64,000 nucleotides of DNA from Escherichia phage PMBT57. The translations under genes and the position numbers were made by a program. Below the pieces are notes generated by a model, which made no database searches, was not told the DNA's origin, and worked only from the letters and a program-made list of their open reading frames with translations. The number at the start of each line of letters is the position of its first letter. Within the stretch, counting starts at the first letter, position 1. Of the stretch, positions 7,990-8,166 are shown in pieces. The stretch lies in sequence record MG770228.1. One strand, 5' to 3'.

Positions 7990-8055
7990 TCCGGTGTAGG
8001 TACTAGTGTTGTGCACGACATGAGTGTTCTGGTTCGAGTCCAGACGCCGGAACCA
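7990..8055 (+). pseudogene. truncated tRNA-like element (acceptor plus T arm plus CCA; D/anticodon region too short)
   Basis: Acceptor TCCGGTG/CGCCGGA, T arm TCTGG-TTCGAGT-CCAGA, then A-CCA. Only 66 nt in total. A 4-bp stem presents GACATGA (CAT) with non-canonical loop flanks, and there is no variable region. Confidence 0.4.
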
Positions 8056-8166
8056 ATTTGAAAGAACTCTTATTTTGGTTACCGCAAAAGAAGTGAAAAA
8101 TGTTGTGGAAAACTACTTCCCAATTAGGTTCGAATCCTAAACCAGAGTAAGAGTTCTTTCGAATTG
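8054..8166 (+). ncRNA. structured RNA module B: 19-bp closing stem enclosing a tRNA-type T arm
   Basis: 8054-8072 pairs with 8148-8166 (18 Watson-Crick pairs plus one G-U). Inside are TGGTT/AACCA and TTAGG-TTCGAAT-CCTAA. No ORF. It ends 8 nt before tRNA-Pro. Confidence 0.5.

What the first reader, a model, noticed from the sequence alone, without database searches (positions are those of the whole stretch)
8054..8166. Module B: 19-bp closing stem that encloses a TTCGAAT T-arm and overlaps the CCA of the upstream tRNA-like element
Positions 8054-8072 pair with 8148-8166 (18 Watson-Crick pairs plus one G-U, checked base by base). Inside are TGGTT/AACCA and a perfect tRNA-type T arm (TTAGG-TTCGAAT-CCTAA), but no foldable D or anticodon arm.

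The 5' strand starts on the CA of the preceding CCA, and the 3' strand ends 8 nt before tRNA-Pro.

Modules A and B share the same design: a very long stem with a single G-U 4-6 bp from the base. This argues for selection rather than chance.
Basis: seen in the sequence. Interest (0 to 1): 0.6.

Follow-up and report, generated by a model that had tools for sequence, protein, structure and literature searches.

The report
Conserved tRNA-like small RNA in phage N4
The long hairpin is real and is the closing stem of a previously unannotated, about 112-nt tRNA-like RNA gene that sits in the phage N4 tRNA cluster and recurs in unrelated enterobacterial phages; what it does is still unknown.

Summary
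The window is a coliphage N4-type genome. Module B (8054-8166, + strand) lies in its non-coding tRNA cluster.

The 19-bp stem is part of a 26-27-bp helix, the best inverted repeat in the 64 kb (MFE -44.8 kcal/mol, z = -8.75).

It is more than a spacer hairpin. The same 111-113-nt element occurs in five phage lineages:
- N4-type
- G7C/Moonfish
- Klebsiella Pylas-type
- Salmonella FSL SP-058/076
- T4-like Yersinia phages TG1 and phiR1-RT

Between lineages the interior is 79-95% identical. The stem arms are only 38-79% identical yet stay paired: 17 of 26 stem pairs show compensatory changes, and no shuffle reached the observed covariation.

The fold is a three-way junction: a long helix, a conserved hairpin in the anticodon-arm position, and a canonical T arm stacked on the helix. 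There is no D arm.

It is absent from Rfam, from every GenBank annotation seen, from E. coli genomes and from plasmids.

The closest known analogue is T4 species 1 RNA (rnaC), but it is not a detectable homologue.

Outside the N4/G7C group the element is not flanked by tRNAs, so releasing tRNAs cannot be its general role.

RNase III excision through the long helix is plausible but untested.

The parts
8054..8079 (+). P1 5' strand. This is the 26-nt arm of the closing helix. C8054 and A8055 are also the CA of the upstream CCA.
   Evidence: Fold, inverted repeat I1, covariation (helix 1, 17/26 pairs with compensatory change).
8080..8089 (+). Junction J1/3, UACCGCAAAA. It is the single-stranded connector that replaces the D arm. 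U, A, C, C, G and AAA are invariant in all 11 sequences.
   Evidence: Alignment A2 invariant columns 27-31 and 34-36. Unpaired in the independent folds of homologues.
8090..8119 (+). P3 hairpin in the anticodon-arm position. It consists of GAAGUG/UACUUC (6 bp), the invariant bulge AAAAAU (8096-8101), GUU/AAC (3 bp), and a terminal loop 8105-8110 of variable length and sequence.
   Evidence: RNAalifold; pair counts (100% paired, pair 38/65 A-U to G-C in 4 sequences). Indels fall in the terminal loop. Reproduced in MFE folds of TG1 and phiR1-RT.
8120..8123 (+). Junction CCAA, with the length of a tRNA variable loop.
   Evidence: Alignment A2.
8124..8140 (+). T arm: a 5-bp stem UUAGG/CCUAA plus the 7-nt T loop UUCGAAU. 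The loop is UUCAACU in the G7C and Pylas groups and UUUGAAU in the Yersinia phages. No nucleotide separates it from the P1 3' strand.
   Evidence: Sequence; stem invariant in 11/11 sequences.
8141..8166 (+). P1 3' strand. It ends 8 nt before tRNA-Pro.
7990..8055 (+). Flank: upstream D-armless tRNA-like element with an encoded CCA (8053-8055). It overlaps P1 by 2 nt.
   Evidence: Annotated tRNA-Undet in Jura. Fold shows an acceptor stem, a long hairpin and a T arm. Not called by ARAGORN or Rfam.
8175..8251 (+). Flank: tRNA-Pro (UGG).
   Evidence: ARAGORN; Rfam tRNA 68.9 bits.
8698..8727 (+). Intrinsic terminator that closes the non-coding tRNA/ncRNA transcription unit containing module B.
   Evidence: Terminator scan; annotated as a terminator in Jura.

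Best explanation
Module B is a self-contained gene for a structured small RNA of about 112 nt, a tRNA mimic rather than a tRNA.

Its fold is a three-way junction:
- a 26-bp terminal helix in the place of the acceptor stem;
- a 10-nt invariant connector instead of a D arm;
- a conserved bulged hairpin in the anticodon-arm position;
- a canonical T arm stacked directly on the terminal helix.

It is transcribed on the + strand together with the phage tRNAs, as part of the roughly 1.3-kb non-coding unit that ends at the terminator at 8698-8727.

Inferred: the long helix acts as a processing stalk and stabiliser. A double-strand cut in it, most likely by host RNase III as in the stalks that excise 16S and 23S rRNA, would free the upper helix plus junction as a stable RNA. 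In N4 it would incidentally also uncouple the upstream CCA-ending element from tRNA-Pro.

Inferred: the conserved interior then acts in trans by binding a factor that recognises the tRNA T-arm/elbow region. The element moves alone between unrelated phages of Enterobacterales, so that factor is probably host-encoded.

Shown: the structure, strand, conservation, mobility and lack of coding potential.
Inferred: excision by RNase III and trans action.
Unknown: the partner.
For: Structure:
- z = -8.75, and the same junction appears in independent MFE folds of Pylas, TG1 and phiR1-RT.
- 94.5% of cells are paired and 18 pairs have compensatory changes. 0/500 shuffles reached the observed percentage paired, number of compensatory pairs or covariation score (the count of extra pair types was not exceptional, 180/500). 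Slid controls give 40-51% paired.

Family:
- 30 phage records in five lineages, including T4-like Yersinia phages.
- Covariance model R1 scores them 100-124 bits and scores nothing else significantly.
- Interior 79-95% identical against 38-79% for the stem. Helix length is kept at 24-26 bp.

Strand:
- G.U pairs and the T loop exist only on the + strand.
- The + strand folds at -44.8 kcal/mol against -31.2 for the - strand.
- The element is always co-oriented with the local tRNAs.

Independence:
- No protein gene is shared between the lineages' flanks.
- Contexts differ.
- Distribution is patchy: only G7C among the many Gamaleyaviruses.

Non-coding: only spurious ORFs of 38 aa or fewer.

RNase III plausibility: E. 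coli RNase III makes double cuts in intramolecular stems. The median distance between the two cuts is 58 nt, and rRNA stalks are the classic case (PMC6212723; PMC8708148).

Precedent: T4 RNA C and RNA D are stable small RNAs made from the T4 tRNA region, function unknown (PMC3014915; PMC9697503). T4 RNA C folds with a T arm next to its terminal helix.
Against: - No expression or end-mapping data for N4 were found, so neither the mature ends nor RNase III dependence are known.
- RNase III has sequence antideterminants that could not be evaluated here.
- RNase E at the AU-rich CCA-AAUU helix base is an alternative nuclease.
- The family is small: 11 distinct sequences in 5 lineages. Covariation inside the junction therefore rests on one pair, and the T arm never varies.
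- No partner is identified, and a purely cis role in transcript stability is not excluded.
Confidence: 0.6

Rival explanations
1. Pure cis-acting processing element. The 19-27-bp duplex exists only as an RNase III site that separates the upstream tRNA-like element from tRNA-Pro, and the interior is a passenger.
For: - A helix of 26 bp is long enough for RNase III (established knowledge; PMC6212723).
- The stem overlaps the upstream CCA and ends 8 nt before tRNA-Pro.
- A CCA-ending element also abuts the stem in Moonfish and G7C.
- Modules A and C of the cluster also have long closing stems.
Against: - The interior is more conserved than the stem and keeps an invariant junction, bulge and T arm.
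- The element occurs far from any tRNA in G7C, Pylas, FSL SP-058/076, TG1 and phiR1-RT.
- It was transferred as a unit between N4-like and T4-like phages.
Confidence: 0.15
2. RNA-based counter-defence decoy or sponge. The tRNA-mimic interior titrates a host tRNA-directed enzyme, either an anticodon-nuclease-type defence or a tRNA-processing or modifying enzyme, in Enterobacterales. This is a specific version of the trans-acting model.
For: - The element is confined to lytic phages of Enterobacterales.
- It shows patchy, accessory-like distribution and horizontal transfer without any protein partner.
- It is absent from E. coli genomes and plasmids.
- Phage tRNAs are known to counter tRNA-targeting defences, for example T5 tRNA-Tyr against a retron (bioRxiv 10.1101/2023.03.15.532788, listed).
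Against: - There is no direct evidence.
- No loop resembles a known anticodon-nuclease substrate.
- The target is unknown.
Confidence: 0.15
3. Decayed tRNA pseudogene whose long stem is a chance or neutral feature.
For: - It has a canonical T arm and overall tRNA topology, and sits in a tRNA cluster.
- Neither ARAGORN nor the Rfam tRNA model accepts it.
Against: - Compensatory changes occur in 17 of 26 stem pairs, and helix length is conserved.
- The interior is 79-95% identical across unrelated phage families.
- Fold z-scores are -5 to -8.8 in all lineages.
Confidence: 0.03
4. Bacterial Y-RNA-like molecule (YrlA/Yrn1 type). The long helix would bind a Ro60/Rsr protein, and the tRNA-like module would tether an exonuclease.
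For: - Y RNAs are 80-130 nt, with a long terminal stem plus a tRNA-like module that includes a T arm, and some are phage-encoded (PMC4201824).
- Rfam gives a weak YrlA hit at 8124-8200 (17.3 bits).
Against: - The score is far below the gathering threshold (17.3 against 69 bits), and the hit spans the T arm plus the start of tRNA-Pro rather than the element.
- The module order differs. YrlA runs stem-V-T-acceptor-like-D-stem, whereas module B runs stem-connector-hairpin-T-stem.
- No Ro60/TROVE gene lies next to it. The neighbours are gp44, SSB, gp46, a hypothetical protein gene, gp48-like and gp49.
- The stem sequence near the junction is not conserved.
Confidence: 0.03
5. DNA-level element: a cruciform or hairpin used for N4 transcription, replication or recombination.
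For: N4 uses DNA hairpins as virion-RNA-polymerase promoters (own knowledge). Module B is the best inverted repeat of the window.
Against: - Three G.U pairs would be C/A mismatches on the other strand. The conserved U.G at column 20/94 is present in 8 of 11 sequences.
- The - strand folds 13.6 kcal/mol worse.
- The element also occurs in T4-like phages, which lack N4 polymerases.
- The conserved interior carries an RNA motif (a T loop).
Confidence: 0.03

Closest known systems
Bacteriophage T4 species 1 RNA (RNA C, rnaC), with RNA D
   Same: - It is a small stable RNA of 100-140 nt encoded on the tRNA strand inside a lytic coliphage tRNA cluster.
- Its terminal helix is formed by the 5' and 3' ends.
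- A canonical T arm (GGUUCGAAUCC) sits directly next to the 3' strand of that helix, preceded by a hairpin in the anticodon-arm position.
- Its function is unknown (PMC3014915, PMC9697503).
   Different: - There is no detectable homology. Model R1 gives 14.5 bits, E = 0.73, on T4 rnaC.
- Yersinia phage TG1 carries a separate rnaC homologue as well as module B, and the 'CUACUU' similarity is not kept in the TG1 rnaC.
- rnaC has a terminal helix of about 7 bp and a four-way junction with a long extra hairpin. Module B has a 26-bp helix, a three-way junction and no D-position hairpin.
Bacterial Y RNAs (YrlA, Rfam RF02553; D. radiodurans Yrn1)
   Same: It has a long terminal stem plus a tRNA-like module with a T arm, is of similar size, and some members are phage-encoded (PMC4201824).
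   Different: It differs in the order of modules, has no Ro60/Rsr gene nearby, has no conserved Ro-binding helix, and scores far below the Rfam threshold.
RNase III processing stalks (the 16S/23S rRNA stalks; phage T7 R1.1-type sites)
   Same: A long duplex is formed by the sequences that flank the RNA to be excised, and helix length is conserved rather than helix sequence.
   Different: Cleavage has not been shown here. The enclosed RNA is only 61 nt and carries a tRNA-type T arm.
tRNA-like domain of tmRNA and D-armless mitochondrial tRNAs
   Same: The topology is the same: terminal helix, unpaired D-replacement connector, a helix in the anticodon position, a short variable linker, a T arm, and the 3' strand. 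The T loop UUCAACU of the G7C and Pylas members equals the E. coli tmRNA T loop (own recollection, not tested).
   Different: Module B has no 3' CCA at the helix end, no G3.U70, no 7-bp acceptor stem and no mRNA-like part. ARAGORN calls neither a tmRNA nor a tRNA.

Membership tests
tRNA (Rfam RF00005) | A 7-bp acceptor stem ending in a discriminator plus CCA | tested here: not met
   The helix is a continuous 26 bp, and no CCA follows the 7th pair below the T stem.
tRNA (Rfam RF00005) | A D arm, and an anticodon arm with a 7-nt loop | tested here: not met
   The D arm is replaced by the 10-nt connector UACCGNNAAA. The hairpin in the anticodon position has a 6-nt bulge and a 4-7-nt loop.
tRNA (Rfam RF00005) | A T arm of 5 bp with a UUCRANY loop | tested here: met
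   8124-8140, UUAGG-UUCGAAU-CCUAA, with the stem invariant in 11/11 sequences.
tRNA (Rfam RF00005) | Detected by the tRNA covariance model (at least 29 bits) or by ARAGORN | tested here: not met
   There is no tRNA hit on 8054-8166 even at E <= 10, and ARAGORN makes no call.
T4 species 1 RNA (rnaC) | Sequence or structure homology to T4 rnaC | tested here: not met
   R1 gives 14.5 bits, E = 0.73. blastn-short finds only the generic 11-nt T-loop match. TG1 has both elements at different places.
T4 species 1 RNA (rnaC) | Encoded in a phage tRNA cluster on the tRNA strand, with a T arm adjoining the 3' strand of the terminal helix | tested here: met
T4 species 1 RNA (rnaC) | Accumulates as a stable small RNA with ends made by tRNA-processing nucleases | not testable with these tools
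   No N4 expression data were found.
YrlA / bacterial Y RNA (RF02553) | Rfam gathering score of 69 bits over the element | tested here: not met
   17.3 bits at 8124-8200, which spans the T arm plus the start of tRNA-Pro.
YrlA / bacterial Y RNA (RF02553) | Module order stem-(V)-T-acceptor-like stem-loop-D-stem | tested here: not met
   The order here is stem-connector-hairpin-T-stem, compared with PMC4201824.
YrlA / bacterial Y RNA (RF02553) | Encoded next to a Ro60/Rsr (TROVE) gene | tested here: not met
   The annotated neighbours are gp44, SSB, gp46, a hypothetical protein gene, gp48-like, gp49 and vRNAP. None of the annotated flanks of the other loci holds such a gene either.
RNase III processing stalk | An intramolecular duplex of about two helical turns or more, formed by sequences that flank the excised RNA | tested here: met
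   26 bp in the window and 24-26 bp in all lineages.
RNase III processing stalk | rnc-dependent staggered double cut leaving 2-nt 3' overhangs | not testable with these tools
   This needs end mapping in wild-type and rnc hosts.
tmRNA (tRNA-like domain) | A tRNA-Ala-like acceptor end with G3.U70 and CCA, plus a tag reading frame | tested here: not met
   ARAGORN finds no tmRNA, there is no free acceptor end, and the element is only 113 nt.

The most novel reading that the evidence does not exclude
Module B is a horizontally mobile, protein-independent tRNA-mimic RNA. Lytic phages of Enterobacterales would carry it as an accessory counter-defence or host-takeover gene. After excision through its long stalk, it would act as a decoy or sponge for a host factor that reads the tRNA T-arm/elbow, such as a tRNA-directed defence nuclease or a tRNA-processing or modifying enzyme. 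This would also give the first functional clue to the 50-year-old puzzle of the T4 species 1/2-type RNAs.
Probability: 0.15. Interest if true: 0.8.

Novelty: new variant of a known kind. Interest (0 to 1): 0.5.

Why it matters
Phage tRNA clusters are usually annotated as tRNAs plus 'spacers'. Here one spacer is a well-defined structured RNA family. Covariation support for its stem is strong, and the family has moved between podoviruses (N4-like) and myoviruses (T4-like) that share almost nothing else.

That pattern is typical of accessory genes that act on the host. The only comparable RNAs, T4 RNA C and RNA D, have had no known function since the 1970s.

N4 grows on E. coli K-12 and is genetically tractable. 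A 61-nt interior swap or a stem mutation therefore gives a direct test of what such tRNA-mimic RNAs do. The neighbouring modules of the same cluster are also shared among phages, so the region may be a whole island of mobile non-coding RNAs.

Tried and rejected
- **Rfam.** Searches at gathering and at E <= 10 found no family for module B. The weak hits (S4-Clostridia leader 19 bits, MIR821 16 bits, YrlA 17 bits) are chance or T-loop matches.
- **T4 rnaC homology.** An apparent similarity ('CUACUU'-linker-T arm) looked promising. It failed because R1 gives E = 0.73, the motif is not kept in the TG1 rnaC homologue, and TG1 has both RNAs.
- **More distant members.** Five pattern scans of IMG/VR, one of GTDB genomes and one of JGI metagenomes, each followed by R1 searches, recovered only the known lineages plus two uncultivated contigs of the Pylas/Ithaca type. 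The pattern TACCGNNAAAGNAGTGAAAAA gave 28 hits in an unrelated family of about 35-kb phages; these lie in apparently unrelated sequence without a T arm and were discarded. A metagenome partial hit (L158, 19 bits) has no stem or T arm.
- **Host or plasmid origin.** There is no blastn match in 5,426 E. coli genomes or in PLSDB plasmids.
- **Co-transferred partner protein.** An all-against-all blastp of the flanking ORFs found nothing shared between the N4/G7C, Pylas/Ithaca and Yersinia groups.
- **Coding potential.** Only a 38-aa GTG ORF overlaps the element.
- **Tertiary covariation.** Inspection by eye of the connector, T loop and hairpin loop found nothing consistent.
- **Literature.** Searches for N4 tRNA-like RNAs or N4 transcript maps found nothing relevant.

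Full report
**Where the window comes from.** The window is 99.7-99.8% identical to Escherichia phages VEc25, Jura and AL25, and 99.2% identical to phage N4 itself (Enquatrovirus, Schitoviridae). Positions 7460-8733 are the non-coding tRNA cluster, which lies between the hypothetical-protein gene that follows gp46 and the gp48-like gene. All of it is on the + strand, and it ends at an intrinsic terminator at 8698-8727. ARAGORN and Rfam find tRNA-Asn (7573-7647), tRNA-Ser (7653-7742), tRNA-Thr (7747-7822) and tRNA-Pro (8175-8251). Module B (8054-8166) lies between a tRNAscan 'tRNA-Undet' element (7990-8055, ending in CCA) and tRNA-Pro.

**Checking the observation.** The described pairing is exact, and the helix is longer than reported.
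- 8054-8079 pairs with 8141-8166, giving 26 bp (23 Watson-Crick, 3 G.U, no mismatch).
- The 113-nt RNA folds at -44.8 kcal/mol against -17.7 +/- 3.1 for shuffles, z = -8.75.
- It keeps the same fold when embedded between its neighbours.
- It is the best inverted repeat in the whole 64 kb.
- The T arm is at 8124-8140. The CA overlap with the upstream CCA and the 8-nt gap to tRNA-Pro are as stated.
- No ORF longer than 38 aa overlaps it.

**What it is.** A sensitive blastn search shows that the element is not private to N4. Thirty phage records carry it, in five lineages:
- N4-type phages;
- G7C and Shigella phage Moonfish;
- Klebsiella phages Pylas and KpCHEMY26;
- Salmonella phages FSL SP-058 and SP-076;
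- T4-like Yersinia phages TG1 and phiR1-RT (Tegunavirus, Straboviridae).

Eleven distinct sequences align over 111-113 nt (A2). Between lineages the interior (8080-8140) is 79-95% identical, whereas the two stem arms are only 38-79% identical. The arms nevertheless stay complementary:
- 17 of the 26 stem pairs show changes on both sides;
- 94.5% of all cells are paired;
- none of 500 column shuffles reaches the observed covariation;
- sliding the 3' partner by 1-3 columns drops pairing to 40-51%.

Helix length is held at 24-26 bp in every lineage. MFE folds of Pylas, TG1 and phiR1-RT, computed independently, give the same three-way junction; the G7C MFE differs inside the junction but keeps P1 and P3a, and its centroid agrees.

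**Anatomy, in window coordinates.**
- P1: 8054-8079 with 8141-8166.
- Connector UACCGCAAAA, 8080-8089, invariant at 8 of 10 positions.
- P3: 8090-8119. It has 6 bp, the invariant bulge AAAAAU, 3 bp, and a terminal loop that carries all the indels. One pair switches from A-U to G-C in four sequences.
- Linker CCAA: 8120-8123.
- T arm: 8124-8140, loop UUCGAAU, UUCAACU or UUUGAAU.

This is the topology of a tRNA that has lost its D arm. The T arm abuts the 3' strand of the terminal helix exactly as in tRNA. However, the 'acceptor' helix is 26 bp long with no free CCA end, and the 'anticodon' hairpin has no 7-nt loop.

The structure is an RNA feature of the + strand. The G.U pairs and the T loop exist only there. 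The - strand folds 13.6 kcal/mol worse. In every phage the element points the same way as the local tRNAs.

**A mobile, self-contained unit.** The contexts differ from phage to phage.
- In N4-type, Moonfish and G7C it directly follows a CCA-ending tRNA-like element.
- G7C has no tRNA within 1.5 kb.
- Pylas and the FSL phages have it about 1-1.3 kb after the last tRNA.
- The Yersinia phages have it between two protein genes, 446 nt after tRNA-Met and 243 nt before tRNA-Arg.

No flanking protein is shared between the three context groups. Among the many Gamaleyaviruses, only G7C has it. It has no match in 5,426 E. coli genomes or in PLSDB plasmids. Pattern scans of IMG/VR, GTDB genomes and JGI metagenomes, followed by covariance-model searches, found no members outside these lineages. 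All known hosts are Enterobacterales.

**How it probably works.**
- Shown: a conserved structured RNA on the tRNA strand, inside a terminator-bounded non-coding unit.
- Inferred from established RNase III biology: double cuts in intramolecular stems are the rule, and the rRNA stalks are the classic example (PMC6212723; PMC8708148). A helix held at about 2.4 turns regardless of sequence is therefore best explained as a processing stalk. It would excise the upper helix plus junction as a stable RNA.
- In N4 this cut would also expose the trailer of the upstream CCA element and the leader of tRNA-Pro.
- The interior is more constrained in sequence than the helix, and the unit moves alone between unrelated phages. 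Together these point to a trans-acting tRNA mimic that engages a host factor recognising the T-arm/elbow.
- RNase E at the AU-rich helix base is an alternative nuclease. Every tRNA 3' end in the cluster is followed by CCA-A(A)UU.
- I put 0.9 on 'conserved structured RNA gene', about 0.4 on RNase III excision, and about 0.35 on a trans-acting tRNA-mimic function. The partner is unknown.

- Right: the stem is selected.
- Plausible for N4: cleavage of the stem would uncouple the flanking elements.
- Cannot be the general role: five of the phages lack flanking tRNAs.
- Wrong: 'no anticodon arm' (P3 occupies that position).
- Wrong: the 'single G-U design'. Phage N4 itself has C-G at that position and a U.U mismatch two pairs further up.

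**Comparison with known RNAs.**
- Module B matches no Rfam 15 family and is unannotated in every record seen.
- The closest known thing is T4 species 1 RNA (RNA C). It is a stable small RNA of unknown function made from the T4 tRNA region (PMC3014915; PMC9697503), and it also has a T arm next to its terminal helix.
- Homology to RNA C was tested and not found. R1 gives 14.5 bits, E = 0.73. Yersinia phage TG1 has a separate rnaC homologue at L002 4041-4175 in addition to module B.
- YrlA-type Y RNAs share the 'long stem plus tRNA-like module' idea, but differ in module order, score far below threshold and lack a nearby Ro60 gene.
- The junction topology equals that of the tmRNA tRNA-like domain and of D-armless mitochondrial tRNAs, but the defining acceptor features are absent.

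**Verdict.**
- The object is a new family of tRNA-mimic small RNA, a new variant of the T4 RNA C kind.
- Structural evidence is strong; function is unknown.
- Interest is moderate (0.5). It is a clean, testable candidate in a tractable phage, but nothing yet shows an unexpected mechanism.

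Noticed in passing
window 7920-7990: A roughly 70-nt module just upstream of the tRNA-Undet element is 86-97% identical in more than 80 other phages. These include Gamaleyaviruses, Klebsiella N4-likes, and temperate-size Klebsiella, Shigella and Salmonella phages of 34-55 kb. Some records annotate it as tRNA-Cys or tRNA-OTHER, although ARAGORN and Rfam call nothing here.
   Followed up: partly
window 8352-8445: A module closed by GTGGGATG...CATCCCAC is shared (75-93% identity) with Gamaleyaviruses and with large myoviruses of Enterobacter, Pectobacterium, Serratia and Cronobacter. 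It looks like a second horizontally shared non-coding element in the same cluster.
   Followed up: partly
window 7824-7917 and 8254-8337: Modules A and C are also closed by long stems: 24-nt arms at 83% complementarity, and a perfect 13-bp stem. The 5' half of module A appears to be restricted to N4-type phages. Together with 8560-8690, which is shared with Gamaleyaviruses, the whole stretch 7823-8700 looks like a mosaic of separate structured RNA modules.
   Followed up: partly
window 7990-8055: The upstream 'tRNA-Undet' element has the same D-armless three-way topology as module B: an acceptor stem, a long hairpin and a T arm UCUGG-UUCGAGU-CCAGA. Unlike module B it has a normal 7-9-bp acceptor stem and an encoded ACCA end. 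Moonfish shares only its 3' half.
   Followed up: partly
window 7645-7652, 7740-7746, 7820-7826, 8053-8059, 8249-8256: Every tRNA or tRNA-like 3' end in the cluster is followed by the same short motif, CCA-A(A)TT. This may be a common endonuclease (RNase E-type) site. For module B the motif forms the base of the stem.
   Followed up: no
L002 4041-4175 (Yersinia phage TG1): An unannotated homologue of T4 rnaC lies just upstream of tRNA-Trp (87% identity over rnaC positions 7-89). It has compensatory changes in the acceptor-like stem and in the anticodon-position hairpin relative to T4.
   Followed up: partly
L007 and L009 (Salmonella phages FSL SP-076 and SP-058): The tRNA coordinates annotated in GenBank are offset by about 1 kb from where ARAGORN finds the tRNAs in the deposited sequence.
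   Followed up: no
L006 1297-1316 (Klebsiella phage Pylas): Another T-arm-like hairpin (GCGG-TTCGATT-CCGC), not called as a tRNA, lies about 175 nt upstream of the module B homologue. The non-coding stretch ends at a terminator at 1856-1874.
   Followed up: no
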